Origin: Acidobacteriota bacterium
GTDB taxonomy: Bacteria > Acidobacteriota > Vicinamibacteria > Vicinamibacterales > CAVVIG01
Direction of reading: 5' to 3'
Assembly: GCA_043743165.1 (NCBI GenBank)
Contig: JAYTXA010000055.1
Location: forward strand, 11,123 to 75,122
Length of the DNA stretch: 64,000 nucleotides
A model generated the notes under the pieces. That model saw only the letters and a list, made by a program, of their open reading frames with translations, made no database searches and had not been told where the DNA came from. The position numbers were made by a program, and so were the translations under genes. Below, piece after piece: positions 9,705 to 64,000 of the stretch. Numbering within the stretch: position 1 is the stretch's first letter; every line of letters starts with the position of its first letter.

Positions 9705-9878
9705 CTACCGTTCGCGCTGAGGCTGGGGCGCCGGTTCAGTCTTCTCCCGCACGCGACGCCACGCCTCGATGTCGGCACGCACCCGCTCGGCCTGGCGCAC
9801 CTTCTCCGTCCACGACTGCTGCCGACGCTCCGCCTGCCAATTCGCCGCTCGTTCCAGATCGCGAATCGCGTCACTCAT
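9705..9878 (-). CDS. Small helical hypothetical protein, probable partner of a nucleotidyltransferase-like gene
   Basis: MSDAIRDLERAANWQAERRQQSWTEKVRQAE; ATG overlaps the stop of an upstream gene remnant (GATGAGTGA). Confidence 0.5.
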   Translation of the reverse strand: MSDAIRDLERAANWQAERRQQSWTEKVRQAERVRADIEAWRRVREKTEPAPQPQRER

Positions 9879-9995
9879 CCGGAAACCTCTGCTCGAAACG
9901 GGTCCACCTGTCCGTGAGGTTATACCTCGAGGCCAGAGCGGCGACTTGCCCACGTGCGACGCTGCCGGCCTGAAGGAGGGACAGCACGCGCAGCA
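9872..9995 (-). pseudogene. 3' remnant of a gene, recalled as nucleotidyltransferase-like
   Basis: Frame reads LRVLSLLQAGSVARGQVAALASRYNLTDRWTRFEQRFPDE*; in-frame TAG shortly upstream; family from memory only. Confidence 0.4.
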
Positions 9996-10070: not shown

Positions 10071-10883
10071 ATGACAGATCGATCGCTATCAGCGGCCAAC
10101 CCGCACGGGTTTCGCACCCTGCTGGACACGGCGGAGGAGGTCTACTTCCGCTACACCCTCGAGCCGACGCGCGGTTTTTCCTACGTCAGTCCGTCGGTGG
10201 CTCTTCTGACCGGGCATGCAGCGGAGGCGTTCTACGCCGACCCGGCGATCTGCGTGTCGCTCGTGGCCAGGGAAGACCGCCGGTTGGTTGGCCAGGTACT
10301 GCGCGCCCGGCGCACCCTGACGTTGACCATTCGTCTCGAGCGAGGCGAGTACCAGGTGGCGCTCGAGGTCAGGACCGTGCCGGTGGTACGAGAGCGTCGT
10401 GTGGTAGCCGTCGAGGGCGTCGCGCGTGTGGCGGCCCAGGCACCACCCGCCACGCAGGCAGGGGCGACCGCCTCCGAGCCGACGCAGGCTCGCCTGGCAG
10501 CGCTGATGTACGAAGTGCATGAACTGCTGCACCGCGTGCTGCCACCGGCCCAGCGCAAGGGGGAACCCGAGCGGAACGCCGTCACCATCGGCCGTCTCAG
10601 CTTCGACCTCCATCGGCTCGTGGTCACCGAGGACGGCCGTGCGGTGGCGTTGACCAGTCGCGAACTGATGGTACTCCGGTATCTCCTGCTGCACCTTGGC
10701 CGTGTCGTCACCCGCGAACAGCTGCTTCTGGACGTCTGGGGACACGTCTACACCGGCGACGATCGGACCGTCGATGTGCATATCTCGCGTCTGCGGCGGA
10801 AGCTGCCGTCACTGGCCGGTCGTCTGGTGGCGATCAAACATCTCGGGTATCGCATCGAGGCCGACGAAGACTGCGCCGCATGA
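10071..10883 (+). CDS. One-component regulator: PAS plus OmpR/PhoB winged helix, no receiver domain
   Basis: FSYVSPSVALLTGH (PAS); LTSRELMVLRYL...REQLLLDVWG...RTVDVHISRLRRKL...LGYRI. Confidence 0.88.
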   Translation: MTDRSLSAANPHGFRTLLDTAEEVYFRYTLEPTRGFSYVSPSVALLTGHAAEAFYADPAICVSLVAREDRRLVGQVLRARRTLTLTIRLERGEYQVALEVRTVPVVRERRVVAVEGVARVAAQAPPATQAGATASEPTQARLAALMYEVHELLHRVLPPAQRKGEPERNAVTIGRLSFDLHRLVVTEDGRAVALTSRELMVLRYLLLHLGRVVTREQLLLDVWGHVYTGDDRTVDVHISRLRRKLPSLAGRLVAIKHLGYRIEADEDCAA

Positions 10884-11013
10884 TCAGGCGGAGTCCTTGG
10901 CGACCCTGCTGAGCATTGCGAAGAGTTCGTCTCACCGCAATCCCAGCGCAATGTCCGGTTCGTAGAGTGAGTGCGCGCGGTTCGGTGGCCGTGCCATTCC
11001 CGGAGACCATTCG

Positions 11014-11766
11014 ATGAACAGACATCTGCTGTATGCGGTGGCGTTGGTAGTTGCGAGCGCCTCGACAGGGTTCGCGCAGGATTACAACAAGGGCTGAGTG
11101 GACGTGAACGTCGGGGTCGCGACCGCGGCCGAAGACTCGTTCAGCTCGACGCGCGTCCTCACCATCGCGCAGGAACGTGGCGGTGGCTCGGTGGCGTACG
11201 GCGTGCCGCGCGGCGGCTCGTTCGACGTTGGCGGCGGTTACATGTTCAGTCGACGCGTCGGGCTTGGTGTCAGCCTGGCCGGGACGGCACACGAAGACAT
11301 TGCCGGCCTTGCCGTGTCGGTGCCACACCCCCTTGTCTTCAATGCGTCGGCGACCGATGCCACCGTCACCGACAGCGCGCTGACCAGGACCGAGGGCGCC
11401 TGGCACATCCAGGCCATGGCCGTCGCCGTTGACACCCCGCGTGTGCGCGTTCGTGTGTTTGGCGGGCCGTCGTACATCCGTGCCGAACAGCAGGTCATCG
11501 ACGGCATCAAGTACGACCAGGCGTTCCAGGTCTTCGGGCGCGGCAACGTCGTCGACATCACGTCTTACACCTCGACGAAGTCGGTCGGTACCGCGTGGGG
11601 CTTCCACGCCGGCGGCGATGTCTCGGTCTTCTTCAATCGCGTCGTCGGCGTCGGCGGCTTTGCGCGTCTGAGCCGCGCGACGACTGAAATCGACGACTAC
11701 GGCGGGGCGCACGACATCAAGCTGGGCGGGCTGCAGGCCGGCGCGGGCTTGCGTCTCCGGTTCTGA
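11014..11766 (+). pseudogene. Outer-membrane beta-barrel protein interrupted by an in-frame TGA (11095-11097)
   Basis: GGAG then ATG 11014; signal peptide MNRHLLYAVALVVASASTGFAQ; same frame resumes VDVNVG; ends AGLRLRF. Confidence 0.75.
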
Positions 11767-11775
11767 GGAAGAGCT

Positions 11776-12210
11776 ATGACTGCGAGAACGTTCGTTTCGT
11801 CGTTGCTGCTCATGCTGGCGCTGCTGGCTGGCGCCGTGGGCGCGCAGGCGCCGCGTCCAACACTGTTCATCACGCCGTCCGGCGACAACTTCGACACCTA
11901 TCTGGCGGCCGCGATGACGAAGAAGAAGGTGCCGATCACGCTGGTGACGCGTGAGGAGGGTGCCGACCTTGTGCTGAAGACGACGGCTGTCGAGATCCAG
12001 CAGCAGTCGACCGGTTCGAAGATTGCGCGCTGCCTGTTTGCCTACTGTGCGGGCATGGAGGACCGCGGGCTCACCAGCGTGCAGGTGCTGCAGGGCGAGG
12101 TGATTGCCTGGTCGTACTCCGTCAACAAGGGGCGCGGCCAGAAGAACCGGCAGTCACTGGCTGAGGCGATTGCCAAGCACCTGAAGAGCGACTACTTTCA
12201 CGTGCGCTGA
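11776..12210 (+). CDS. Secreted hypothetical protein
   Basis: Signal peptide ending AVGA-Q; GAGG upstream; starts 9 nt after the barrel gene. Confidence 0.75.
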   Translation: MTARTFVSSLLLMLALLAGAVGAQAPRPTLFITPSGDNFDTYLAAAMTKKKVPITLVTREEGADLVLKTTAVEIQQQSTGSKIARCLFAYCAGMEDRGLTSVQVLQGEVIAWSYSVNKGRGQKNRQSLAEAIAKHLKSDYFHVR

Positions 12211-12220
12211 CCGGCGGCGG

Positions 12221-12286
12221 TCACGCCGTCGGCAGGCGCAGCAGCGCGAACGGCAGCGCCGGCTGAAGGCTTGGATCGACCGGCCG
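12221..12286 (-). pseudogene. WYL regulator 3'-end fragment A (66 bp)
   Basis: Encodes RPVDPSLQPALPFALLRLPTA*; 62/66 nt identical to 12960-13025. Confidence 0.9.
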
Positions 12287-12327
12287 CGTCGCCGCAGGTG
12301 GCAGCCGGTGCGCGCCCGATGCTCCGG

Positions 12328-12651
12328 TCAGGCCGGACCGCGCCGTCGGTCCCAGAGCGAGTGTTCCCAGCCGCGAATCACGCCGTTTACGCCGCACATG
12401 GGACAGTGCCAGGCGATCTCCGGCGAGCCCTGCCGCAGGTCCGCGACCAGTTCGCCGCGGCAGCGCTTGCCACCCGCACGACGCCAACACCACACGTTCG
12501 TGGGCCAGACACTTTCGGGCTCATGGTCCGTCGCCCATGCGACGACGGACGTCAAGACCATCGCCAGATTGAGCGCCGGCCCAGGCAGGTCCGCGAGGTC
12601 TTCGCTGTCATCCAGGTAGTGACGCAGATCCGTGACGTACGTGTTGGCCAT
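12328..12651 (-). CDS. Hypothetical Zn-ribbon-like protein
   Basis: CWRR-x5-C...WHCPMCGVNGVIRGW; typical codon usage. Confidence 0.7.
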   Translation of the reverse strand: MANTYVTDLRHYLDDSEDLADLPGPALNLAMVLTSVVAWATDHEPESVWPTNVWCWRRAGGKRCRGELVADLRQGSPEIAWHCPMCGVNGVIRGWEHSLWDRRRGPA

Positions 12652-12663
12652 GAGTATTTGCGC

Positions 12664-12686
12664 GGTCGGGCGGAACGCGCCCGACC
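12664..12686. other. GC hairpin between cargo genes
   Basis: GGTCGGGCG-gaacg-CGCCCGACC. Confidence 0.5.
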
Positions 12687-12717
12687 CACCGTCGGTTGCA
12701 TGCCGTTCCGCAGCCCG

Positions 12718-12930
12718 TCAGGCCGGCACCGTCTCGAGGTCCACATGCAGGGAGTCTGATTGCGGGATCGAGAAGTTCAGCTTCTCGAAACCCAGGACTC
12801 GACCTGACGCGTCCTTCATCAGGACGACCTCGTCGCCTGTTTCCTCGCAGATGTACTCTCGCGAACGCTCCGTGAACCAGACGGTCAGCGTCTTACCTTC
12901 GCGGTCGTAGAACACTTTTACTTCGGCCAT
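12718..12930 (-). CDS. DUF2283-like putative antitoxin, orphan
   Basis: VKVFYDREGKTLTVWF...EETGDEVVLMKDASGRVLGFEKLN. Confidence 0.8.
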   Translation of the reverse strand: MAEVKVFYDREGKTLTVWFTERSREYICEETGDEVVLMKDASGRVLGFEKLNFSIPQSDSLHVDLETVPA

Positions 12931-12959
12931 ATCTGCACTCTTCCCCGCCATTCTACCCG

Positions 12960-13218
12960 TCACGCCGTCGGCAGGCGCAGCAGCGCGAACGGCAGCGCCG
13001 GCTGCAGGTTCGGGTCGACCGGCCGTCGCTCGCCGTCCGGATACAGTCGCCGGCTCGACTCGAGTTCATCCATCGCCCACTGCACCAGGGACGCCGGCGC
13101 CAGCACGCGAACGCCGCTGCCGAAGCTCAGAATCCAGCTGCGGAGGGCGTAGTCGTCGCTGACATTCAGGGTCATGTCCGTCGCGCCGTCGGGCCGGTCG
13201 CGGAACTGCTGCGACGGG
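12960..13218 (-). pseudogene. WYL regulator 3'-end fragment B (259 bp)
   Basis: 16 mismatches versus 13876-14134 by manual alignment. Confidence 0.92.
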
Positions 13219-13325
13219 CGTCTCCCGTGGGGCGCGTTACGAACGTCGCCGATGTTCCGCTCCGTGGGGAAAGAAACCGTGCAACCGCTTTCTGACGGCC
13301 GAAGCGCAGGTGTATATTCGGAGCC

Positions 13326-13565
13326 ATGGCGAATCGGCTTCCAATCCCGCCGCCCGGCTTCGATGAGCTTCCGGTCGAAGACCAGATCGAATACGTCCAG
13401 AGCCTGTGGGACCGTATCGCCGCGTCGGTCAACCAGGTTCCACTCCACGAGTGGCAACGGCGGTTGCTGGAAGAGCGTCTGGCCGAGCACCGGGCGAACC
13501 CTGACGACACGGAGTCGTGGGAGGAATCGCTCGTCGCGCTGAATGAGGAACGCCGCGCGCGGTAG
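13326..13565 (+). CDS. Addiction module antitoxin (TIGR02574-like)
   Basis: LPVEDQIEYVQSLWDRI...WQRRLLEERLAEHRANPDDTESWEE; directly upstream of the toxin. Confidence 0.85.
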   Translation: MANRLPIPPPGFDELPVEDQIEYVQSLWDRIAASVNQVPLHEWQRRLLEERLAEHRANPDDTESWEESLVALNEERRAR

Positions 13566-13868
13566 ATGTCTCGGCTCCGACTCCGCCGCGCTGCCAGGCG
13601 CGACATCGCATCGGCCATCAAGTGGTACGACTCCGAACGCCCCGGGCTTGGTGCAGAGTTCCTGACCGACGTCGACACGACGCTTCGACGCATCCGCGAG
13701 TCGCCCCTGATGTTCCCGGAAGTCGTGCCCCAGACCCGCCGGGCACTCCTGGCACGGTTTCCCTACGGCGTGTTTTTCATGCTCGGGGCCGAAGACCTCG
13801 TCGTCCTGACCGTGAGCCATCTGCACAGGAATCCTGAGAGCTGGCGTTCGCGCAAGTGGGCTCTTTGA
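13566..13868 (+). CDS. RelE/ParE family toxin
   Basis: AARRDIASAIKWYDSERPGLGAEF...RRALLARFPYGVFF...HLHRNPESW. Confidence 0.88.
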   Translation: MSRLRLRRAARRDIASAIKWYDSERPGLGAEFLTDVDTTLRRIRESPLMFPEVVPQTRRALLARFPYGVFFMLGAEDLVVLTVSHLHRNPESWRSRKWAL

Positions 13869-13875
13869 GCATCGC

Positions 13876-14887
13876 CTACGCCGTCGGCAGCCGCAGCAGC
13901 GCGAACGGCAGCACCGGCTGCAGGCTCGGGTCCACCGGCCGGCGCTCGCCGTCCGGATAGAGCCGACGGCTCGACTCGAGCTCGTCCATCGCCCACTGCA
14001 CCAGCGACGCCGGCGCCAGCACGCGAACACCGCTGCCGAAGCTCAGAATCCAGCTGCGCAGGGCGTAGTCGTCGCTGACGTTCAGGGTCATGTCCGTCGC
14101 GCCGTCGGGCCGGTCGCGGAACTGCTGCGACGGGTGCCAGGTGCGTTCCTTCAGGCGGTCTGCGAGAGCAGGTGCGAAGCGCAGGCGGACACGCACTGCC
14201 GGTCCGCGGTAGATGCCGAGCGAGTTGGCGTACGGGTCGGTCTCGAGTTCATCGAGCATCTCGAAGGTGAGCTTGTCGGCCGCTGCCTGGCGAATTCTTT
14301 CAACCGCAAACGTTCGCAGCTCCTTGTGTTCGGGCACCCAGGCCAGCAGGTAGAGGCCGCTCTGCGCATGGACGATGCGGTAGGGGTGGACGACACACCA
14401 CACGGGTGTCCATGATCGCCTCGACCAGGCGGATGGTGATGGCGTGGGTCTGTTCCGTCTGCTTCTTGGCTTGCGGCGACCTCGCGCTGATCGCCTTCGG
14501 CATCAGTTCGAGGAAGCGGCGCATGCTGGGCGACAGTGCGGCGTCCATCTTGTCGAAGGCGCCTTGCAGGTCTTTCAGGAGGGCGCTCTCGGCGAAGCAC
14601 TCGAACAGCGCGCGGCTCATATGCAGCGTGGCCAGTTCGGCGATGGTGAACCCGTCTCTCTCCAGTCTGGCCAGCGCGCGCGGCGGCAACGACCAGTACT
14701 TGCCGTGTTCGTCCTGGTCTTCCTCGAGCGGAAAGCCGGCGGCCTCGAGGGCTTTCAGGTCCCTCCGCACCGTGCGCTCGGTCTTCCCTGTTTCCTCTGC
14801 CAGATGCGCGATGGTGGTGCGGCGGTTGCTGGCCAGGATTCGGAGTATCGACCACTGGCGAATGAGTTCGCTGTTGCGTCCGGGCAA
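13876..14887 (-). pseudogene. HTH-WYL-WCX transcriptional regulator (PafB-like), copy C, frameshifted by a deletion near 14395
   Basis: N-terminal HTH (KTERTVRRDL) in ORF 14300..14887; WYL/WCX (HPYRI, LYLLAW, RTFAVERI, RSWILSFG) in ORF 13876..14403 in another frame. Confidence 0.88.
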
Positions 14888-14919
14888 GCGGGCTCCTGTG
14901 TGGGGCGGTGCTGGTGATT

Positions 14920-16593
14920 CTAGGCGTCGCGCGGCTGCCAGTCGTATCCCGGCTCGGTAGTCAGGCGAGTGTCGTCAACCGCCTGGCCAACGGTGAAGTG
15001 ATAGAGGCTCTGGAACGCATGACCCGTCAAACCGAGAAGGTCGTGCACGCCATCGTCGAAGAAGCAGCCGATGCCGGTGGCGCGGGCACCGGCAGCTTCG
15101 GCGTCCAGGTAGAGCCTCTGTCCCACCATGCCCGTCTCCCAGAACAGCTGCCGGTAGAACGAGGAACCGTACTCCTGCAGGCTCTCGCTGAAGTCGGCGA
15201 GCATGCCCAGGCTGAAGTAGCCGTCGGAGGCGATGGCCTGGCCGCAGCTCAGGCGAGCTGCCATGGCGCGCGCGTCCTGGCGCGACAGCCGCCACAGCGG
15301 CAACGAGTCGTCTGCCTGGTCCCATACGAGTTCAGGCCCGCAGGCTGCACGCAGCCGGTCGAGCACCTGCGCGTCACGCACCAGCACGTACACGCCAGGC
15401 TCGACAGCGTCCACGCGGTGCACGAACAGCACGAGGTGCACGCGCGGTGTCCACCACGCGCTGTCCCATGGAGGCCCCGCCTGTGGCAGCACACTCGAGA
15501 GCATGTCGAGGAAGGTCGACCGGTCGAGCATGGCTCCGCCGTCGAAGGCGACGGCGCTGCGACGCTGCAGCACGAGGGCGCGCGCGTCGATCGCGGGGGT
15601 GCGGGATGCGTCGCGATGGCGCGGTGCGAGCCGCGCCACGATGACGTCGCTCCTTGCCGGCTGCTCCGACGCCTTCGCCACTTCGTCGATGAATGACCAG
15701 GTGACGTGGTCTTCGCTCAACTGGCTCGCGTGTCCCGACCACCGACCGTTGGCCACCGCGTGCACGAGCGACAATGCGGTGTCCTCGGACAGCTGCGGCG
15801 GGTCGCCGGCAGTCAGCGCGATCACGCAGCCGGGTTCCTCGCGCTCGGCATCGATGAAGTCCTGGTCGCGATCGATACCCGCCAGGGCGGCCATCGCCCC
15901 GTGCGAAAAGACCGGCAGCAGCGTGGCGTGCCAGCCCACCAGTGCCACGCCGAACGAGAGCGCGGCCACGGCATGACCGAGGTCGTGCTGGCAATAGCGG
16001 AATGCTCGCTCGCCGTACTTCCACGCCTCGCGCCAGTGAATGGAGGTGAGCACCACGAACAGCAGGTCCGGCTGTCCGCTCAGGGCATCGTTCCACGCCT
16101 CGACATCGACAGAACATCGTTGCTCGAGCAGGTGCCGGTCCGGTGCGTAGTGGTACACGCCTGGCACCACGGCGACCGGCGGCAACGGACCGCAGACGAC
16201 GTAGGCCTCGGTCGGGTGCAGGTTACCGCTGGACGGGTTCACCCGCAGCGGCCAGCGCGCCGCGCCCGCCTGCTTCCAGGCGGAGAGCCCCAGGGAGTGC
16301 CGCAGCACGTCACCGACCAGAGCCGCGGAGAGCGGCTCGGCCACTGCAGGCCGCTGCCGCAGCGCGGCGAAGGATGCCGGCGGTGGCGAGTATTCGCCGG
16401 CATCCACGTCGGGCGACGGATACAGCGGGATCGTTGCCGCCCCGACGTAGGCGCGAAACGGCGCTGGCTGGGACGCCCAGTCCAGGTAACCGAGCGAGCG
16501 CGCGAACCGATGAACGTGGTGCTTGGTACCGTCGTGATAGCGGTAGATCGTGTCGAGCGACGCGGCGTTGCCGAGGGCGTGCTCGCTACACAT
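14920..16593 (-). CDS. SagB/ThcOx-like tandem nitroreductase-domain protein
   Basis: YHDGTKH, LRVNPSSGNLHPTEAY, WKYGERAFRYCQHDLGH, QRRSA, TGIGCFFDD; start uncertain. Confidence 0.88.
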   Translation of the reverse strand: MCSEHALGNAASLDTIYRYHDGTKHHVHRFARSLGYLDWASQPAPFRAYVGAATIPLYPSPDVDAGEYSPPPASFAALRQRPAVAEPLSAALVGDVLRHSLGLSAWKQAGAARWPLRVNPSSGNLHPTEAYVVCGPLPPVAVVPGVYHYAPDRHLLEQRCSVDVEAWNDALSGQPDLLFVVLTSIHWREAWKYGERAFRYCQHDLGHAVAALSFGVALVGWHATLLPVFSHGAMAALAGIDRDQDFIDAEREEPGCVIALTAGDPPQLSEDTALSLVHAVANGRWSGHASQLSEDHVTWSFIDEVAKASEQPARSDVIVARLAPRHRDASRTPAIDARALVLQRRSAVAFDGGAMLDRSTFLDMLSSVLPQAGPPWDSAWWTPRVHLVLFVHRVDAVEPGVYVLVRDAQVLDRLRAACGPELVWDQADDSLPLWRLSRQDARAMAARLSCGQAIASDGYFSLGMLADFSESLQEYGSSFYRQLFWETGMVGQRLYLDAEAAGARATGIGCFFDDGVHDLLGLTGHAFQSLYHFTVGQAVDDTRLTTEPGYDWQPRDA

Positions 16594-16814
16594 ACAGGCG
16601 CCGTAGCATCTCGGCCGCTGAATCGTCCAGCAGTTCGGCCCGGCGCATCCGCTCGCCGTCCCGGTAGCCACGCCAGGCGAGCGCGTCGATCGGGCCCCGG
16701 ATGTAGAGGATGGAATGGAAGTGGGGCGACACGGCTCAGCCGACAGTCATCTTCAGCGTTTCAGTTCCCCAGAGCAACCATGAAATGCATCCGTTATGAG
16801 GGAAGCGCCGCGCA

Positions 16815-17299
16815 CTATCTGCTGTGCGCTCGGGGCGAGTCGTATTTCATCGACACCACGCGGGTGTCCATGATCGCCTCGATCAGGCGGATGGTGATGG
16901 CGTGGGTCTGTTCCGTCTGCTTCTTGGCTTGCGGCGACCTGGCGCTGATCGCCTTCGGCATCAGCGCGAGGAAGCGGCGCATGCTGGGCGACAGGGCGGC
17001 GTCCATCTTGTCGAAGGCGCCTTGCAGGCCTTTCAGGAGGGCGCTCTCGGCGAAGCACTCGAACAGGGCGCGGCTCATATGCAGCGCTGCCAGTTCGGCG
17101 ATGGTGAAGCCGTCTCTCTCCAATCTGGCCAGCGCCCGCGGCGGCAGCGACCAGTACTTGCCCGCTTCGTCCTGATCTTCCTCGAGCGGAAAGCCGGCGG
17201 CCTCGAGGGCTTTCAGGTCGCGCCGCACCGTGCGCTCGGTCTTGCCTGTTTCATCCGCAAGCTGCGCGATGGTGGTGCGACGGTTGCTGGCCAGGGTTC
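16815..17299 (-). pseudogene. WYL regulator 5'-half fragment D
   Basis: Closely similar to about 14395-14841; cut at the 5' side by the IS end at 17300; ends ...DTRVVSMKYDSPRAHSR*. Confidence 0.9.
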
Positions 17300-17637
17300 T
17301 GTCAGTAATCGTGTGAAAGTCCCCCCAGTGTCTATCAGGTGAAAGTCCCCCCTCCCTTCCGAGGGAGAGGACGATGGACGATCAGACGAAGGACGTAGGC
17401 TCGACACCGGTGCCCGGAGCGCCGGTGGAGGGCTGGATGCTGGGAGAAGACGTCGTGCGCGAGGTGCTGGCCCGGTTGGCCCGCGGCGAGCACATCAAAG
17501 CGATCGCGCGCGAGCTGGGGGTCGACAAGAAGACGATCAAGCGGTGGCGGCAGCGCGGCGCCTGGCGGCCGCGCACGCCGCGGGTCTATCCGAAAGCGAT
17601 CGACGCGCATCGGGACTTTCTGGAGCGACGCGGGCCG
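17300..17637 (+). mobile_element. istA: IS21-family remnant: left end plus 5' part of the transposase
   Basis: TGTCAG terminus; GTGAAAGTCCCCCC repeated at 17313 and 17339; HTH IKAIARELGVDKKTIKRW from ATG 17374; no DDE domain or istB. Confidence 0.75.
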
Positions 17638-17642
17638 ACGCG

Positions 17643-17996
17643 ATGCGCAAGTTCGAGTCGATGCCGGAGGTGCGTGAGCTGTTCTGCGCCGGCGGGGTCG
17701 TCGAGGCCGACTACGACAGCATTCGCACTGCGGTGGTGCATCACTGCCTGCTCGAGGAACTCGACGGGTCGCATCCGTACTGGCGCCTGACGTCGCTGCT
17801 GAAGGATGCCGATGGCCTCGACCGGGTGCGCCTGCGCGACCTCGACCCTCTGTTCCTGCGTTACGACGTGTCGCGAACGATGGTGAGCTTCGCTCAGGCA
17901 CTCTTCGATGCGACCCGCGGCCGGATCCCGGCCGGCGACGGACACTTCGGGGAACTGTGGGCCAGCGTCCCGGCTGCCCTTGTGGGTCCCCCCTGA
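17643..17996 (+). CDS. Hypothetical protein or 3' gene fragment fused to the IS remnant
   Basis: Protein-like frame MRKFESMPEVRELF...; no clear RBS. Confidence 0.45.
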   Translation: MRKFESMPEVRELFCAGGVVEADYDSIRTAVVHHCLLEELDGSHPYWRLTSLLKDADGLDRVRLRDLDPLFLRYDVSRTMVSFAQALFDATRGRIPAGDGHFGELWASVPAALVGPP

Positions 17997-18019
17997 AACC
18001 CATACAGTACGAAGCCGAT

Positions 18020-18247
18020 ATGCCCTCTCCCTCATCCTCGACGGCGGCTGCCTCGTTCCAGGCCACCCTCGACCTGTTCCAGACCGGAATGGACCTGATG
18101 CGGCGGAACCTTCGGCGCCGCTTTCCGGACGCCAGCGATGAGGCCATCGAGCAGCGGCTCGGCCAGTGGCTTCGTGATCGGCCGGGTGACGCCGCCTCCA
18201 GCGACCGCTCGGGATCTCAGACCCGCCGCGAGCCGTCCTCGCTGTGA
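18020..18247 (+). CDS. MenA1 (Rv0078B)-like small antitoxin, orphan
   Basis: FQATLDLFQTGMDLMRRNLRRRFPDASDEAIEQRLGQWLRDRPG resembles MenA1 as recalled. Confidence 0.6.
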   Translation: MPSPSSSTAAASFQATLDLFQTGMDLMRRNLRRRFPDASDEAIEQRLGQWLRDRPGDAASSDRSGSQTRREPSSL

Positions 18248-18334
18248 CCGCGCTCGAATCCGCACTGCGGCAGATGCTGGCGCACCCAGTCGACGCAGCC
18301 GCGTCAGCCCGCTAAGGCGTTTTCCAGTATGTGC

Positions 18335-18441
18335 GTAGCTGCCGACCTTCAGGTCGGCCGCGGTCCAGCGCACCTGACCAGCCTCCGCCAAGGCTACGGC
18401 GGTCCGCCGAAGCAGTGCGAAGGCGGAAGGTGCGCGGCTAC
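18335..18441. repeat. Inverted REP pair; the second REP carries a nested insertion
   Basis: GTAGCTGCCGACCTTCAGGTCGGC at 18335-18358; 18368-18441 matches 38360-38433 at 72/74 nt. Confidence 0.85.
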
Positions 18442-18480
18442 GCCACGCCGAAATCGCTCCAGGGCACTGGCGGCCAGCCC

Positions 18481-18912
18481 TCAGAGGCCTTCGATATCGC
18501 CGAGGTCTTTCGTACGACCGGTGGCACGCTTGTTCCGGATGAACGCGTCGCGACCGATGAACGCAACAGCCACGTCGCCCAATGCGCCAGGCTCACGCGT
18601 CGCCCACGCCTGCTCGAACTGGATGCCGGTCAACTCGGTGAGGACGTCGATGCGGCCAGGCGGCACGCCCATCTGGAAGACGACGCCGGGACGAGCAAAG
18701 TCGTCCTGTGCCACTTGGTCGAGCGGCGCGCCGAAGGCGGCCAACGCCCGCATCACCCTCGGCGCATTTTCGGCTGTCGCCTCCACCCAGACATCGAGGT
18801 CGCCAGTAGCGCGCGGCCGGCCGTGGTGCGCGAGTGCATAGGCACCAACCACCAGGAAGCGGACGTCAGCCGCGGAGAAGGCGCGCAACAGATCGACAAA
18901 GTCCGGGTTCAT
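18481..18912 (-). CDS. Pol-beta superfamily nucleotidyltransferase (DUF6036-like)
   Basis: VVGAYALAHHGRPRATGDLDVWV; NKRATGRTKDLGD. Confidence 0.85.
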   Translation of the reverse strand: MNPDFVDLLRAFSAADVRFLVVGAYALAHHGRPRATGDLDVWVEATAENAPRVMRALAAFGAPLDQVAQDDFARPGVVFQMGVPPGRIDVLTELTGIQFEQAWATREPGALGDVAVAFIGRDAFIRNKRATGRTKDLGDIEGL

Positions 18913-19078
18913 CAGGCTTCCGTCCGAGAAGTTCCCACTGCTCGACCGACAACCGCCATGCAAACCGGACACGTTCGTCGGGCGCGATGCTGCGCCAGTA
19001 CGCGGCATCGTGACGGTCGGCCTCAGCGTTCGACGCGAACCGCTGAACCGTCATGTTGGCGCGAGTCACAGGGGGCAC
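18866..19078 (-). CDS. Small partner protein, putative antitoxin
   Basis: EADRHDAAYWRSIAPDERV; overlaps the NTase start; TATACT 6 nt before GTG. Confidence 0.7.
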   Translation of the reverse strand: MPPVTRANMTVQRFASNAEADRHDAAYWRSIAPDERVRFAWRLSVEQWELLGRKPDEPGLCRSVARLLRG

Positions 19079-19115
19079 GAGGGGAGTATAGCGGGACGCG
19101 CACCCGGCCGCGGAT

Positions 19116-19682
19116 TCATCGCTCGCAGTCGACCCGGGTACGCTCGAGACGTGCCATCAACTCCGGCTCGTCCTTCAACTCCGCCAGCGGTGCAAGCTGC
19201 GTGCGGACATACGCCCAATCCAGCACACCAGGCTGCCGGATAATGACGCCCTCGATATCCATCCAGTCCTTCGGACGGCCGGCGAACGCCTTGAGCACAA
19301 TCAGGTCCTCCGCCGAGCAGGTGCGAAGGGGTAGGTCGCCCGGATAGGTGAACACCGTCGAACGCTCGACGGCGCGCTCCTCGAACGGCAGGCCTCCGAG
19401 CGCGATATCGAGTCCAACGCCGGACGCGGTGCGCAACAACAGCACGCGGTTCACCAGCGCGAATGCCGCCGCATCGTCGATACGCGGCTCGAAGGCCGCC
19501 GCGAGGACCGTCACGAAGTCGGCTTCCTGACCGAAGCCTGTGATCAGGGTGAGATCGACGTCGACCGTTTCGCGCGGGTCGCCCCACCGCAGCACAGCAA
19601 GCCCGCCGATGAAGCAGAAGCGCCAGCGATGCGCGTCGCAGACCGCCTGCAGATCCGCCGCGGCACGAATCAGCGCGTTCAC
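19116..19682 (-). CDS. AbiEii/MenT-like nucleotidyltransferase
   Basis: FIGGLAVLRWGDPRETVDVD; SAEDLIVLKAFAGRPKDWMD. Confidence 0.85.
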   Translation of the reverse strand: MNALIRAAADLQAVCDAHRWRFCFIGGLAVLRWGDPRETVDVDLTLITGFGQEADFVTVLAAAFEPRIDDAAAFALVNRVLLLRTASGVGLDIALGGLPFEERAVERSTVFTYPGDLPLRTCSAEDLIVLKAFAGRPKDWMDIEGVIIRQPGVLDWAYVRTQLAPLAELKDEPELMARLERTRVDCER

Positions 19683-19936
19683 GCGCGGCGTAACCGCGAA
19701 AACAGCCGCTGCTGCTCGATCAGGCCGGACGTCGGCCTGGGTGCACGCGGTGGTTGGTGGTAGTCGGCTGGACCGCACAGCCGGGCGATCGCGGCGAAGG
19801 TGTCGAGTTCGCGCAACTCGCGTCGGCGAATGGCTTCGAGACGCGGCGCCGCATGACGCCAGCGCTCCACCATGGCGCGCCCCTCGGCTACCTGTTCCGG
19901 CGTCCAGTCGGCGAGTGGCGAGCGGGGCGGCTCCAT
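19679..19936 (-). CDS. Small partner protein, putative antitoxin
   Basis: GTGA overlap with the NTase; TAGAAT 6 nt before ATG; TSGLIEQQRLF motif. Confidence 0.75.
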   Translation of the reverse strand: MEPPRSPLADWTPEQVAEGRAMVERWRHAAPRLEAIRRRELRELDTFAAIARLCGPADYHQPPRAPRPTSGLIEQQRLFSRLRRA

Positions 19937-38446: not shown

Positions 38447-39649
38447 TCAACAGGCCAGCGAATCGCTCTCGGCAAGCACGCAGCGGTCGCGGCCCTGGCC
38501 CTTGGCGGCATACAGCGCGCGGTCGACACCGACGAAGAGGCCATGCAGCGTCGAGAACTGGTCGACCACGGCCGCGCCGAAGCTGGCGGTCACGCGGATC
38601 CCACCGAACGGCGCGCGCGCCATCAGCGTGCGCAGGCGTTCGGCCACTTCCATGACGCGCGGCGCATGCGCAGTATCGACCACCGCGAGGAACTCCTCGC
38701 CGCCGTAGCGGCCGAACACGTCGTTCGTGCGCAGGCCGCGCGCCATGCGACGCGCCGCTTCCGCCAGCACCCGGTCCCCCACGACATGACCATACGAGTC
38801 GTTCACGGACTTGAAACGATCGATGTCGCACATGATGACGCTGAACGTGGCCTGGCCACTCGCGTATCGCCGCCACGCGCGCGCCAGCGCCTGATCGAGA
38901 CCGCGCCGGTTGAGGACGCCGGTCAACGGGTCGGTGGTGACAGCCTGCTGCAGCCGGCGCCGCTCGGCCAGGAGCCGGCGACCGTGAGTCAGCCCGCGCC
39001 CATAGGTTCGCGTCTTCTGCACCACCACAGACACCTGGCGAGCCAGCCGCTGGAACGCCGTGACGTGACCGGGCTGATAGACGCCCTGTTCCCGGCTCGT
39101 AAACAGCAGGAAGCCGAGCGGCTGTCCATCGGCGACGAGCCGGCAGGTCAGGCTGGAGCGGGCACCGTCCGATTCCAGACGTTGCAGCAGGTCGCTGCCG
39201 GGCCTGGCGGCCATGCGCGCCACGAGATCATCGACGATTTGGGGCTGATCGCCGACCGCCGCCTCGTAAAGGCCGCTGTCGACGATGGGCGAGGTGTGGC
39301 CGACGGGGATGCCGATGGTGCTGTCGTGCGAGCGCATCCAGTAGACCACGGCGGTCTTGCCCTCATCACCGAGGAACGAGCAGATCACCTGGTCGAAGGG
39401 GATGAAGCCGGCGAACCCCTCGAACAGGCGGTTCAGTACCGCGTCGAGCAGCTGGTTCCGCTCGGTGGAGATCTGCTTCACCAGCAGGTTCAGCTGCTCC
39501 TCACGCCGGGTCACGTCCGAGGAAAACGCATCGAGGGCACTGCCCAGGCGCTCGACCGGATCGAGCAGGTCGGAGGCGCGTGCGCGGTCGAACGCGGTCG
39601 GCAGGGTCAGCGTGGCGACGGAGCGGCGGGCGGCGACGGGGGAAGGCAT
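38447..39649 (-). CDS. GAF-GGDEF diguanylate cyclase
   Basis: TDPLTGVLNRR, DIDRFKSVNDSYGH, RTND I-site, GGEEF. Confidence 0.92.
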   Translation of the reverse strand: MPSPVAARRSVATLTLPTAFDRARASDLLDPVERLGSALDAFSSDVTRREEQLNLLVKQISTERNQLLDAVLNRLFEGFAGFIPFDQVICSFLGDEGKTAVVYWMRSHDSTIGIPVGHTSPIVDSGLYEAAVGDQPQIVDDLVARMAARPGSDLLQRLESDGARSSLTCRLVADGQPLGFLLFTSREQGVYQPGHVTAFQRLARQVSVVVQKTRTYGRGLTHGRRLLAERRRLQQAVTTDPLTGVLNRRGLDQALARAWRRYASGQATFSVIMCDIDRFKSVNDSYGHVVGDRVLAEAARRMARGLRTNDVFGRYGGEEFLAVVDTAHAPRVMEVAERLRTLMARAPFGGIRVTASFGAAVVDQFSTLHGLFVGVDRALYAAKGQGRDRCVLAESDSLAC

Positions 39650-60107: not shown

Positions 60108-60425
60108 CTAGTCCTGGCGGGTGCCGAGGCTCGACGGCGTGACGTCCAGCACGTTCTTGTCGATGGTCATGATGCCGCCGACCGCCACGGCTGCGAGGCC
60201 GATGTAGAGCAGGGCCTTCTTACCCTTCGACATGCCGCTGCGCGACAAGTTGCCGCCCTGGCTCTGATACGCCGCGGGCTGCGTGCCCTTCGACGGCTCG
60301 GCCGGCGCGCTCACCGCAATCTGCTGCACGTGGCGTGTACCCGCGCTCAGCAGCGATTCTCCCGCAAAGGCCGCCGACGCATTGCCAATCGACGCCACCA
60401 GTGCGAATACGAGCAACCGGTTCAT
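60108..60425 (-). CDS. Small secreted/membrane hypothetical protein
   Basis: AGGAG RBS; signal peptide ending AFA; C-terminal hydrophobic helix; paralog at 63892. Confidence 0.8.
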   Translation of the reverse strand: MNRLLVFALVASIGNASAAFAGESLLSAGTRHVQQIAVSAPAEPSKGTQPAAYQSQGGNLSRSGMSKGKKALLYIGLAAVAVGGIMTIDKNVLDVTPSSLGTRQD

Positions 60426-60458
60426 TCGAAATCTCCTGACAGAGGTCGTGAAAGGTGC

Positions 60459-60499
60459 TGGCAGACGCCCAGGAGCCCGGGGGCTTCAGGCGTCTGCCA
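60459..60499. other. Intergenic stem-loop after the TonB receptor gene
   Basis: TGGCAGACGCC...GGCGTCTGCCA; no strong U tract. Confidence 0.55.
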
Positions 60500-60507
60500 A
60501 CGCTGGA

Positions 60508-63500
60508 CTAGAACTGGATTGCCGCTGTCACGCGCGCGATCCGGGGATCCAGGAACGTCGTCGGACGCAGCCAGCGCGTGCCATAGGTCGTCTGGACGTT
60601 CTGAATCGAATTGTTGTTCAAGGCATTGTAGAGGTCGAACGCGACACGGAGCTTGGCCCAGCCAATGTCCAGGTTCTTGTTGATGGCGAGATCGAGCTGA
60701 TTGAAGCGCGGCCCATATACCGAGTTTGGCGTGACCAGGTTCACGGCTTGTGGGGTGGTCAGCGTCGATGCCGCGCGGCCGTTCTTGAACGTGATGTTGG
60801 CGGCCGACGCGGTCAGCACCGCATTCTGAAGCGCACCACGGGTGTTGCGGTAGATGAAGCTGCCGTTGAAGCCGCCCTTGATCGGGACGCTGCCGTTGAA
60901 GCGGAAGTCCATGGTGTTCTTCCAGGCAATCACGGCCCGACACGCTCCATCACCGCTGGAGTTGTAGCCGGTGAACGTGGTCCCGCCGAGCGAGCCAGTG
61001 ACGTCGATCGGCTGATTGGGGACGTCGACCGTGAAGCAGTGGTCATCGACGTTTCGGCCCATGTCGATGCCCCCACCAACCTTGACGTTTCCGGGCAGCC
61101 GGCCGTCGAGGCTGACCCAGGCGCCGTCCCAGTACCTCTGCGGCAGTTTGGTATTGCCGTTCTTGTCGACGAAGTCCTTGGCGTTGGTCACGCGCAGCGT
61201 GCCCTGACCGAAGAGCGACGGCTTCACATCGTAGAAGCCGCACCGGGTCTGACCGGAGGTGGACAAGCGCGCGTCGGTCGGAACGGTAATGCAGAACTCG
61301 TCGTAGTCACTCGGTCCGAGGAGGGTGTTCTCGGTAACGGTGAAGTTGCCGTCCCAGTTGTGGTTGTAGCCAACGGAGAGCGAGAGACCGTGGAGGACTT
61401 CGTGTTGCAGGTCGACGTTGACGTCCCACAGGAAGTCCCGGTTGTTGAGCAATACCGAGTCGGAGAAGGTGACGGCGGCGGCGTTGAACTGCCCGAAGAA
61501 CGCGCTGCTCATCGGACCGCAGATGTCCCCCCCGCTGGCGCTGAGGTCCTGGGCCGTCAGATTTCGGATGTCGCAGTCCGGAGTGTAATTGCCGTTCACG
61601 TCCGTCCAGCTGCGGAACGCATTGTTGACCGATGAGTTGATCGGGTTGACCCGCCCGGTCAGGTCGGATCGGCTCAGCTGATTGTAGCGGCCCATCGACA
61701 CCTTCAGCGCCGTCCGGCCGTTGCCGAAAATGTCGATCGCGGTGCCAACGCGTGGGTTGATGTCGTTCCAGAGAGGCACGCTCGAACGCTCGGCTGCCTT
61801 ACGAGCCGGCACATAGGGACCAGCAGCGAGGTTGGCTTCGAGATAGCCGATGTTGATGCGGTCGTACCGAAGGCCGAGATTGAGCGTCATGCGCCCGAGC
61901 TTCCACGCGTCCTGCGCGAAGACACCGAGCTCCATACTCTGGCGGGTCTGGATGAACCACGGCTGGGCGAAGTACTGGAGTCTGATCGGCTTGCCGTTGA
62001 GGAAATCGTAGTTCAGGCCGTCCACCTGATTGTTGCGATCACGCGACTCGTCGTTGAATCCCTGCTCGTTGGTCACACCAACCTTGACGTTGTGCGTGCC
62101 GGTGACATAAGAGACGGTGAAGCGCTCGGCGCTGCGACCGGTCCGGGCCTTCGGTGCGGTCAGCCGCGCTGGCGCGCCATAGCGATAGCCCGTCGCACCT
62201 TCGAGAATCGAGCGATCGTTCTGGGTCACTCCATCCTGCGCGAAATTCACCCAGTTAGCCGTCTGCCACGACGCGCCTGCCTCGAGCAGCAGACGACTCG
62301 TGATGGGAGCCGTCCATGTGCCCTGCACCACACCCGACGGAAACCAGTCCCAGCCGGTCTCGTTCTCGATCGCGTTGGCGCCGGTGAAGGGGCCCGTGGT
62401 GCACCGGCAGTCTTTCTGAATGTCCCCGTACACGTTGATGCGGTTCTTGGGCGTGACCTGGGCGGTGATGCGGCCCGCGTGCGTGCGGTACCAGTCGAAG
62501 CTGTTAGCCGGCCGCACGGTGCCCAGGTTGGGATCGCCCAGCGCCGAACTGGCGTACGGGCTACCGGGCTGACCCGGGTAGAAGAGCGTCGGCGTGACGC
62601 CGGCGAAACCCTTGGCGAGGCCGAACGTTGGATTGCCGGCCTGAGCCTTGCCCTGCAGCGGATTGTAGAACGCGCTCGGCTGCTGAACAGTGGAGCCCCA
62701 CCGTCCAATGGCGGCGAAGAACCAGATCTTGTCCTGCTTGATCGGCCCGCCGAACTGGATGCCCATGCGATAGATCCGCTGAACTTCCGCTGCGGAGTTG
62801 ACGCCCTGACTGGCGGCGAGCGCCGCGTTGCCAAGCGTCCAGTCGTTCAGGTTGCTGCGGACGTTGGCGCCCTGCATGGCACCGTTCGAGAAGTAGCCGT
62901 CGAGGCCACCAGCGAACGTATTGCTGCCGCTCTTCGGAATCGCGTTGAGCGACGTGCTGCCCGAACCCGCTTCCGCGCCCATGCCGCTCGTTTCGATCTG
63001 CAGCTCCTGGATGTTGCCCTGGTCGGTGATGTAGCCGACGCCAGACGCCGCATCAACGAAGTACTGGTTACGGAAGCCGTCGAAGTTGGCGCGCGTGCCG
63101 GTCTTGCCGTGGAACAGCGTGTAGTTGCCCTGCGCCGACCAGGTGTCGCGCGTGCCGCCGACGTCCGCCTGCGTCGCGGCGAAGCCGGGGGTGACATACG
63201 CCAGCGTTTGGAGGCCAACATTTCCGCTCGGCAGCGATTCGAGTTCGCTGGCGTTCAGCGTCTCCTGCTTGCGCATGCTGGTCGTGTCGACGACCGGCGC
63301 CGCGCCGCTGACCGTGATGGTCTCTTCGAGCGACCCCACCTGCATCGCGATGTTCACCGTGGCCGTGAAGCCGGTACCCAGCGTGATGCCGTCGCGCTTG
63401 ACGGTTGAAAAGCCGGTGAGGCTGAACGTCACCGCATACGTGCCGGGGCGGAGGTCGACGACGCTGAAGCGTCCCTCGCCGTCGGTCGTCACAGTGCGCA

Positions 63501-63690
63501 CCTTTTCGATGAGCGCCGGACTTGCCGCCTCAACCGTCACGCCCGGCATCGCCAGGCCCGACGTATCGCGCACAACACCCGCGATACCGCTGGCCTGCTG
63601 CGCCCACGCGGGTGCATTCAGCGCCAGGAATCCGATTGCAACGAGACCGAAGGCTACCGCCCTCGTCTGAACCCTGATCCACTGTGTCAC
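60508..63690 (-). CDS. Oar-like TonB-dependent receptor with carboxypeptidase-regulatory-like N-domain
   Basis: IAGVVRDTSGLAMPGVTVEAASPALIEK; ETITVSG; KSGSN; QDAWK...LNLGLRYD; C-terminal Phe. Confidence 0.92.
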   Translation of the reverse strand: MTQWIRVQTRAVAFGLVAIGFLALNAPAWAQQASGIAGVVRDTSGLAMPGVTVEAASPALIEKVRTVTTDGEGRFSVVDLRPGTYAVTFSLTGFSTVKRDGITLGTGFTATVNIAMQVGSLEETITVSGAAPVVDTTSMRKQETLNASELESLPSGNVGLQTLAYVTPGFAATQADVGGTRDTWSAQGNYTLFHGKTGTRANFDGFRNQYFVDAASGVGYITDQGNIQELQIETSGMGAEAGSGSTSLNAIPKSGSNTFAGGLDGYFSNGAMQGANVRSNLNDWTLGNAALAASQGVNSAAEVQRIYRMGIQFGGPIKQDKIWFFAAIGRWGSTVQQPSAFYNPLQGKAQAGNPTFGLAKGFAGVTPTLFYPGQPGSPYASSALGDPNLGTVRPANSFDWYRTHAGRITAQVTPKNRINVYGDIQKDCRCTTGPFTGANAIENETGWDWFPSGVVQGTWTAPITSRLLLEAGASWQTANWVNFAQDGVTQNDRSILEGATGYRYGAPARLTAPKARTGRSAERFTVSYVTGTHNVKVGVTNEQGFNDESRDRNNQVDGLNYDFLNGKPIRLQYFAQPWFIQTRQSMELGVFAQDAWKLGRMTLNLGLRYDRINIGYLEANLAAGPYVPARKAAERSSVPLWNDINPRVGTAIDIFGNGRTALKVSMGRYNQLSRSDLTGRVNPINSSVNNAFRSWTDVNGNYTPDCDIRNLTAQDLSASGGDICGPMSSAFFGQFNAAAVTFSDSVLLNNRDFLWDVNVDLQHEVLHGLSLSVGYNHNWDGNFTVTENTLLGPSDYDEFCITVPTDARLSTSGQTRCGFYDVKPSLFGQGTLRVTNAKDFVDKNGNTKLPQRYWDGAWVSLDGRLPGNVKVGGGIDMGRNVDDHCFTVDVPNQPIDVTGSLGGTTFTGYNSSGDGACRAVIAWKNTMDFRFNGSVPIKGGFNGSFIYRNTRGALQNAVLTASAANITFKNGRAASTLTTPQAVNLVTPNSVYGPRFNQLDLAINKNLDIGWAKLRVAFDLYNALNNNSIQNVQTTYGTRWLRPTTFLDPRIARVTAAIQF

Positions 63691-63822
63691 TAAGCCCTCC
63701 GGGAATTTTCGGCTGCCATCTCGAGGAACTGAGTTCTGTAAGCCGGGCCGTTTTGTAACACGTTTGTATTAGTGACGCCTGTCGCAAATTGTCGCAGACG
63801 ATCGTCGCAGTTGTCGGAAATG

Positions 63823-63858
63823 AAAAAGCCCACCAGCGGATCCAATCCGCTGGTGGGC
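63823..63858 (-). terminator. Intrinsic terminator
   Basis: 13-bp perfect stem GCCCACCAGCGGA/TCCGCTGGTGGGC followed by TTTTT on the minus strand. Confidence 0.85.
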
Positions 63859-63891
63859 GTGACTTGCCGCGAAGCGTCGTGGCCGGACGGT

Positions 63892-64000
63892 TCAGTCCTG
63901 ACGGGTGCCGAGGCTCGAGGGGGTGACGTCGAGCACGTTCTTGTCGATGGTCATGATGCCGCCGACCGCCACGGCCGCGAGGCCGATGTAGATCAGCGCC
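63892..64000 (-). CDS. 3' part of a paralog of 60108..60425
   Basis: Encodes ...YIGLAAVAVGGIMTIDKNVLDVTPSSLGTRQD*, the same peptide with synonymous changes. Confidence 0.85.
   Translation of the reverse strand, partial: ALIYIGLAAVAVGGIMTIDKNVLDVTPSSLGTRQD

What the first reader, a model, noticed from the sequence alone, without database searches (positions are those of the whole stretch)
12221..17299. WYL-gene-anchored cargo array: four co-oriented pieces of one regulator gene separate different accessory cassettes
Seen: the WYL 3' end occurs three times (A 12221-12286, B 12960-13218, C from 13876) and the 5' half twice (C, and D 16815-17299), all on the minus strand. Different cargo lies between the pieces: Zn-ribbon gene plus DUF2283, then a ParE/RelE TA module, then a SagB-like gene. 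B versus C shows 16 mismatches in 259 bp: 12 synonymous, 2 in the stop codon (TGA/TAG) and 2 amino-acid changes. A versus B shows 4 in 66, 3 synonymous. Inference: these are pieces of separately selected alleles, not a decaying local duplication. The gene may act as a repeated landing pad, where incoming 'WYL allele plus cargo' displaces the old 3' end, as in Rhs/CDI orphan arrays. Known: WYL regulators (BrxR, CapW, DriD, PafBC) sense nucleic acids and often flank defence loci. No integrase is visible in the window, and the fragment 5' boundaries differ.
Basis: partly seen in the sequence, partly recalled or inferred. Interest (0 to 1): 0.85.

Follow-up and report, generated by a model that had tools for sequence, protein, structure and literature searches.

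The report
Stacked scars of imported WYL alleles
Four broken pieces of one regulator gene are really there with different small gene cassettes between them, but no working copy is left and other unrelated genes in this genome carry the same kind of scar, so they are likely leftovers of DNA repeatedly imported from close relatives and then trimmed by deletions, not a dedicated landing-pad system.

Summary
The four co-oriented WYL pieces, the cargo and the mismatch counts are confirmed. The pieces diverged under purifying selection (dN/dS 0.05-0.19). An independent assembly of public reads carries all nine joints at about the depth of the flanks, so a strain chimera is unlikely. A metagenome contig holds an intact allele followed by toxin-like gene + DUF2283; piece B is that haplotype with the toxin-like gene deleted. 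None of 22 relatives' WYL loci has a second co-oriented piece, but most are distant. The same anatomy (gene, cargo, partial diverged copy) occurs at five or more unrelated genes of this genome, including an RlmI-like methyltransferase and tRNA-Ser. Best reading: relatives' versions of a variable locus were likely stacked in tandem by one-sided homologous recombination and then eroded. It works like the Rhs/CDI/T6SS displacement model but is not such an array, and WYL is not special. Interest moderate to low.

The parts
12221..12286 (-). WYL piece A: last 21 codons + stop (weak homology to 12294)
12328..12651 (-). 107-aa Cys-rich hypothetical gene ('Zn ribbon' is a label by eye); only its last 58 nt region survives in G006
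12718..12930 (-). DUF2283 gene, 94% nt identical to the one after the intact allele in L026
12931..12959 (-). Deletion scar: 29 nt from B's stop to DUF2283 here, 327 nt in L026, where a 107-aa partner (likely toxin; no family match) lies
12960..13218 (-). WYL piece B: codons ~267-351 (WCX part) + stop, followed by the same downstream bases as the intact L026 allele
13326..13868 (+). Unstab_antitox antitoxin (13326-13565) + ParE-family toxin (13566-13868)
13876..14394 (-). WYL piece C, 3' part (codons 180-351), out of frame with its 5' part
14395..14887 (-). WYL piece C, 5' part (codons 1-164, HTH_11); 44-nt deletion at 14394/14395; upstream 43 nt resemble those of the intact allele
14920..16593 (-). 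SagB-family nitroreductase; 96% nt identical to G006 against 86-92% for six flanking genes; native start region deleted relative to G006
16594..16829 (-). Spacer of gene shards; 16703-16837 shared with G006 (92%)
16830..17299 (-). WYL piece D: codons ~17-171
17300..17636 (+). Left end and first ~88 codons of an IS21-like element (weak NCBIfam hit, below cut-off), itself truncated
10071..12210 (+). Block after piece A: Trans_reg_C regulator, outer-membrane barrel, secreted protein; the regulator also lies ~4.6 kb downstream of the intact WYL gene in G009

Best explanation
The region is a variable island in which several related versions of the same locus were likely stacked in tandem by imports of DNA from close relatives, and the redundant WYL copies were then cut down by deletions and an IS insertion until none works. 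Shown: four diverged, purifying-selected pieces; no intact copy; natural intact alleles with different neighbours in relatives; recent cross-lineage sharing of the SagB cargo; many deletions inside the locus; the same anatomy at unrelated genes. Inferred: each import paired by RecA-type homology at one end (WYL or another shared gene) and joined illegitimately at the other (homology-facilitated illegitimate recombination), probably after natural DNA uptake. That leaves the donor's or the resident's gene end as an orphan beside new cargo. WYL would be the usual anchor here only because it is the conserved gene shared by otherwise different versions of this island.
For: dN/dS B/C 0.05 (P 3e-6), C/D 0.19 (P 4e-5), dS 0.17-0.20. 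L026 has intact allele + partner gene + DUF2283, with the same bases after the stop as B. A cluster of 17 proteins at 90% identity includes 11 distinct full-length alleles; 104 of 378 pairs of informative sites are four-gamete incompatible, as expected if alleles recombine within the gene. SagB dS to G006 is 0.065 against 0.29-0.51 for six flanking genes. G006 holds the same locus with other cargo and its own decayed WYL remnant. Genome scan: 26 of 163 low-copy diverged repeat pairs lie within 12 kb (0.5% expected), 23 direct vs 3 inverted. At the RlmI-like locus the orphan end plus ~3.6 kb is absent from G006 and G007, which join the flanks almost directly. At the ilvB-like locus G007 lacks the 640-nt shard block and matches the neighbouring segment at 97-98% against 91-94% for the rest. 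ComEC present; no tyrosine integrase on the contig.
Against: No donor or pre-insertion parent of the WYL pieces was found, so insertion joints cannot be told from later deletion joints. Microhomologies at joints are only 5-6 GC-rich bases in a 67% GC genome. The recombination signal in the allele pool is protein-level and its distance dependence is not significant (permutation p 0.058). The four pieces share residues absent from all sampled intact alleles, so they are closer to each other than to any known donor. HFIR is reported to be rare in experiments (PMC5361080, passages). ComEC rang in 10 of 14 control genomes and does not show competence.
Confidence: 0.58

Rival explanations
1. Whole diverged copies of the locus were first placed in tandem (heteroallelic merodiploids or accreted mobile units carrying WYL), and every truncation is a later deletion; no illegitimate joint at import is needed.
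For: Clear post-acquisition damage: 44-nt deletion in C, 298-nt loss before DUF2283, deletion at the SagB start, IS21-like end cutting D, truncated IS. The ilvB-like locus looks like the shredded junction of a tandem repeat of a multi-gene unit. Transformation-made merodiploids are known in S. pneumoniae (PMC3784515, abstract).
Against: No recognisable element or tyrosine integrase. At the RlmI-like locus only the last 134 nt plus downstream cargo is extra. Three of four WYL pieces keep their stop codon and own downstream neighbour, which fits imported or displaced ends.
Confidence: 0.25
2. WYL is a dedicated, repeatedly used landing pad, like Rhs/CDI heads, and the array is kept for a function.
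For: It is the richest such site in the genome (4 pieces). G006 also keeps a WYL remnant at this locus. Homologues sit among shuffled TA and conflict-type genes.
Against: No intact head; codons 172-179 absent from the assembly; 0 of 22 relatives' loci with an extra co-oriented piece; same scar at unrelated genes; the WYL C-terminus is conserved, not a variable effector tip.
Confidence: 0.08
3. Local duplications gave paralogues that stayed functional for a long time (dS about 0.2) and decayed recently.
For: The pieces form their own group against sampled alleles; low dN/dS is also expected for functional paralogues.
Against: Cargo is not duplicated; B carries the downstream sequence of a foreign haplotype; all relatives examined are single-copy.
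Confidence: 0.06
4. Strain-chimeric assembly.
For: Metagenome-assembled genome; no contig spans the whole region; runs X1/X2 may be the source data.
Against: Independent contigs with no mismatch cross all 9 joints (6 with 31 or more bases each side, 3 with 29-30) at depth 9.5-14.1 against 12.7-15.2 in the flanks, and no alternative joint between pieces is listed.
Confidence: 0.03

Closest known systems
Orphan/displacement arrays of Rhs, CDI (cdiA-CT/cdiI) and V. cholerae T6SS effector-immunity loci (PMC5361080, PMC4927057; passages read)
   Same: Co-oriented displaced 3' gene ends from diverged alleles separated by different cargo; no integrase needed; HFIR is the mechanism proposed for them.
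   Different: No intact head gene; the anchor is a regulator with a conserved C-terminus; no immunity gene to retain; 5' pieces occur too; not recurrent in relatives examined.
Homology-facilitated illegitimate recombination (described in PMC2884548 and PMC11751169, passages; PMC3240628, search listing only)
   Same: One homologous anchor, one non-homologous joint, variable boundaries, gain of foreign cargo.
   Different: Inferred here from genome scars only; several events stacked at one site and spread over many sites of one genome.
Transformation-generated merodiploids of S. pneumoniae (PMC3784515, abstract)
   Same: Tandem partial duplications arising from DNA uptake.
   Different: Those are 100-900 kb, identical-copy and repeat-bordered; here 1-8 kb and 82-97% identical.
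PafBC/DriD-class WYL regulators (HTH_11-WYL-WCX)
   Same: Domain order of the intact allele; best solved-structure matches are PafC (7p5x, 1e-8), a WYL-domain protein (9pfq) and 8tp8.
   Different: Distant similarity only; targets and ligand untested; the gene is dead in this genome. That 8tp8 is DriD is recalled, not from a call.

Membership tests
Rhs/CDI/T6SS-type orphan array | Intact head gene upstream of the orphans | tested here: not met
   C frameshifted, D truncated at both ends
Rhs/CDI/T6SS-type orphan array | Co-oriented displaced 3' ends from diverged, selected alleles | tested here: met
   A, B vs C; dN/dS 0.05-0.14 (A vs B alone P 0.09)
Rhs/CDI/T6SS-type orphan array | Variable toxin tip with cognate immunity gene retained | tested here: not met
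   C-terminus is a conserved WCX domain
Rhs/CDI/T6SS-type orphan array | Orphans can recombine with the head to give a working gene | tested here: not met
   Codons 172-179 absent from all pieces and from the assembly (genome 96% complete)
Rhs/CDI/T6SS-type orphan array | Recurrent at the same gene across relatives | tested here: inconclusive
   0 of 22 loci with an extra co-oriented piece, but only one is a close allele and it has 825 nt downstream; G006 has a lone remnant
Integrase-mediated island in a protein-coding target | Integrase gene in or beside the island | tested here: not met
   7 PF00589 matches in the genome, none on contig C55; serine recombinases not searched
Integrase-mediated island in a protein-coding target | One shared crossover (att core) for the displaced fragments | tested here: not met
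   Boundaries at codons ~330, ~267 and 171
HFIR product | Homologous anchor on one side, non-homologous joint on the other | tested here: inconclusive
   Geometry fits at WYL and RlmI-like loci but later deletion gives the same picture
HFIR product | Short microhomology at the illegitimate joint | tested here: inconclusive
   5-6 GC-rich shared bases at the D and A joints using proxy parents
HFIR product | DNA uptake or transfer route and RecA dependence | not testable with these tools
   ComEC homologue present only
PafBC/DriD-class WYL regulator | HTH-WYL-WCX architecture | tested here: met
   Intact allele family
PafBC/DriD-class WYL regulator | Nucleic-acid-dependent transcription control | not testable with these tools
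   needs biochemistry
BrxR/CapW-type defence-operon repressor | Adjacent known defence operon | tested here: not met
   PADLOC on 9 neighbouring proteins: only weak AbiEii and mad8 hits, E about 2e-4

The most novel reading that the evidence does not exclude
This Vicinamibacterales clade has an integrase-free, genome-wide route that stacks relatives' haplotypes in tandem, so that toxin-antitoxin modules and other small cargo spread by hitch-hiking on the end of whatever conserved gene they sit beside. The orphan ends are then a readable, datable record of interspecies DNA uptake in an uncultured Acidobacteriota lineage, and the WYL island is its hottest site.
Probability: 0.35. Interest if true: 0.62.

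Novelty: new variant of a known kind. Interest (0 to 1): 0.37.

Why it matters
It removes the case for a new WYL-based cassette system. It does show that the displacement scars known from toxin loci also form at ordinary genes (regulator, rRNA methyltransferase, tRNA, amidohydrolase) in an uncultured sediment bacterium. If the process is confirmed across the clade, such scars give a simple way to count additive gene imports without integrases and to explain how TA modules move in these genomes.

Tried and rejected
A 52-nt match to the WYL end in G005 (L025) is chance: it lies inside an unrelated oxidase-like gene. L027 repeats the L022 locus and was dropped; L032 and L033 (36% over 69 aa) were not examined; three loci repeat L021-L023 and were counted once. 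The 20-70 nt extra hits (E 0.001-0.04, plus a 41-nt repeat in L030 at the gene's edge) were treated as chance or non-WYL repeats; L031 has a second, distant WYL piece in opposite orientation. Runs X3 and X4 (depth 2-5) cover only parts and bridge no WYL joint by 31 bases among the listed pieces, so they are not counted as support. No tRNA in the window. The repeat at 60110/63894 is an ordinary tandem paralogue pair. In the genome scan C29, C54 and C24:54479 look like tandem paralogues or internal repeats, C13 lies beside a tyrosine integrase, C5 and C43 are non-coding, C9:133506 is a whole-gene pair, C44 is ambiguous; C14, C37 and C59 were not inspected. Earlier scan findings: three look-ups returned nothing. 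No structure or complex prediction was run.
Full report
Observation. The four pieces are real and co-oriented on the minus strand. Nei-Gojobori values are dN/dS 0.05 for B/C, 0.19 for C/D, 0.08 for A/C and 0.14 for A/B (P 3e-6, 4e-5, 0.01, 0.09), with dS 0.17-0.30. The differences therefore built up while the sequences were functional genes. The cargo is DUF2283, an Unstab_antitox/ParE pair and a SagB-family nitroreductase; the Cys-rich gene has no family match.

What was missed. Against a natural intact allele (L026, 351 aa, 86-88% nt), C lacks 44 nt at 14394/14395 and is frameshifted. D covers about codons 17-171 and is cut at 17300 by the left end of an IS21-like element that is itself truncated. 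B starts at codon ~267 and A is the last 21 codons. Codons 172-179 are in none of the pieces, and a search of the 96%-complete assembly finds only a distant paralogue on C69. The gene is dead here and cannot be rebuilt from its pieces.

Assembly. Four runs of one study hold the stretch. In X1, independently assembled contigs with no mismatch or gap cross all nine joints: six with 31 or more bases on both sides (including the deletion in C) and three with 29-30, where contigs end at identical repeats. Their depth is 9.5-14.1 against 12.7-15.2 for the flanks, and no alternative joint between pieces is listed. X1 and X2 may be the source data, no contig spans the whole region and the piece tables were cut, so long-range order rests on the original assembly.

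Relatives. Record titles of most hits name Vicinamibacterales or Acidobacteriota, so the host is likely of that group. Of 11 same-genus genomes, three have one intact orthologue (65-72% aa) and G006 has only a remnant. Across 22 loci with a WYL homologue, 15 of them with 5 kb or more downstream, none has a second co-oriented piece. Most are 27-71% identical; the one close allele has 825 nt downstream, so this test is weak for the nearest relatives. Neighbours vary widely and include TA, ARPP-1, HD and AAA genes (84 of the 150 called neighbours and other proteins were scanned). PADLOC shows no defence system beside the gene. L026 is informative: its intact allele is followed by the same bases as piece B, a 107-aa gene, DUF2283 (94% nt) and the small gene found at window 9727-9886. 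In the window the 107-aa gene is deleted (327 vs 29 nt). G006 has the same flanking genes but other cargo (TonB-type receptor, patatin), a 58-nt remnant of the Cys-rich gene region and a decayed WYL remnant. Its SagB gene differs from ours at dS 0.065 against 0.29-0.51 for six flanking genes, which points to recent exchange at this locus. A 90%-identity cluster of 17 proteins gave 11 distinct full-length alleles among the 15 listed; 104 of 378 site pairs are four-gamete incompatible, though the distance trend is not significant (p 0.058). The window's pieces share residues not seen in these alleles, so no direct donor was found.

The same scar elsewhere. A self-comparison of the genome found 163 low-copy repeat pairs of 50-700 nt at 80-99.5% identity. 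Of these, 26 lie within 12 kb (0.5% expected), 23 direct and 3 inverted; the direct pairs fall at 17 sites. I inspected 13 sites besides WYL. Five show an intact gene, cargo and a partial diverged copy: an RlmI-like methyltransferase (C7), an amidohydrolase (C9), tRNA-Ser (C30), a kinase-type gene end (C63) and an ilvB-type region (C24). The last two names and several TA labels are by eye. The amidohydrolase and kinase-type genes have paralogues, so their orphans could be paralogue pieces. At C7 each of 11 relatives has a single copy of the gene end, and G006 and G007 lack the orphan plus ~3.6 kb. At C24 G007 lacks the shard block and matches the adjacent segment at 97-98%. These other sites were not checked against reads. 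In samples of relatives, G006 gave 5 near direct pairs at 4 sites in 800 kb, two sites with similar anatomy. G005 and G001 gave one each in 400 kb, both short-period repeats. The numbers are too small for a firm contrast.

Mechanism. Most likely (0.58), related versions of a variable island were added next to each other by recombination that is homologous at one end and illegitimate at the other, and redundant parts were then deleted. The pieces, selection, relatives' haplotypes and deletions are shown; uptake route, anchor and order of events are inferred. The main rival (0.25) is tandem stacking of whole copies with all truncations arising later; the deletions in C, before DUF2283, at the SagB start and in the IS show that erosion is strong, and the data cannot separate the two. 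ComEC is present; none of 7 tyrosine integrases lies on this contig.

Comparison with the literature. Sequential displacement by HFIR was proposed for V. cholerae T6SS immunity arrays and for Rhs orphans (PMC5361080, passages), for CDI orphans as a fossil record (PMC4927057, passages) and for P. aeruginosa effector swapping (PMC11751169, passages). PMC2884548 (passages) invokes it for dimorphic loci; PMC3784515 (abstract) shows transformation-made merodiploids. This locus works like those arrays but fails membership: no head gene, no toxin/immunity tip, no route to restoration. Two searches found no paper holding the terms for a WYL fragment array or for such remnants in Acidobacteria; two related searches returned only unrelated or general papers, seen as listings. 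The library lacks most subscription papers. The intact allele has the HTH_11-WYL-WCX layout of PafBC/DriD-class regulators; its function was not tested.

Verdict. Real, read-supported, and a clear example of stacked import scars, but not a WYL-specific system. New variant of a known kind; interest 0.37. The genome-wide pattern is the more promising lead.

Noticed in passing
G000:C7:32393-32526 and 39432-39564 (L061): Last 134 nt of an intact RlmI-like methyltransferase repeated 7 kb downstream at 95.5%; orphan plus ~3.6 kb absent from G006 and G007.
   Followed up: yes
G000:C24:25720-33494 (L064): 640-nt block of shards from three neighbouring genes (88-97% to the intact copies), like the eroded junction of a heteroallelic tandem repeat; absent from G007.
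   Followed up: partly
G000:C30:14483-15501 (L066): 5' part of tRNA-Ser(GCT) with upstream bases duplicated around a two-gene TA-like module, no integrase between.
   Followed up: partly
G000:C63:16112-17169, C44:124255-125122, C9:136267-137274, C5:20639-21985: Diverged direct repeats of 80-145 nt flanking TA-like or nucleotidyltransferase modules.
   Followed up: partly
G000:C13:11512-14635 (L067): 185-nt direct repeats around a HEPN/MNT-like pair next to a tyrosine integrase; possibly integron-related (label by eye).
   Followed up: no
window 17640-19936: The island continues with a gene shard, an Rv0078B-like antitoxin, two nucleotidyltransferase TA-like pairs (one AbiEii-like) and a REP-like repeat at 18300-18450 with dozens of copies in the genome.
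   Followed up: partly
L103-L108 region, G006:C5 about 853000-858000: Two interleaved diverged repeats around TA-like genes in G006, the same anatomy in a second genome.
   Followed up: no
window 60110-64000: Tandem paralogue unit (small secreted protein + large outer-membrane receptor-like gene), 77% over 3.5 kb; ordinary.
   Followed up: yes
L037-L045, L050: More distant WYL homologues (about 55%) sit among a recurring, reshuffled set of genes: DUF2130, Smr, HD, AAA_5, YbjN-like, ARPP-1.
   Followed up: partly
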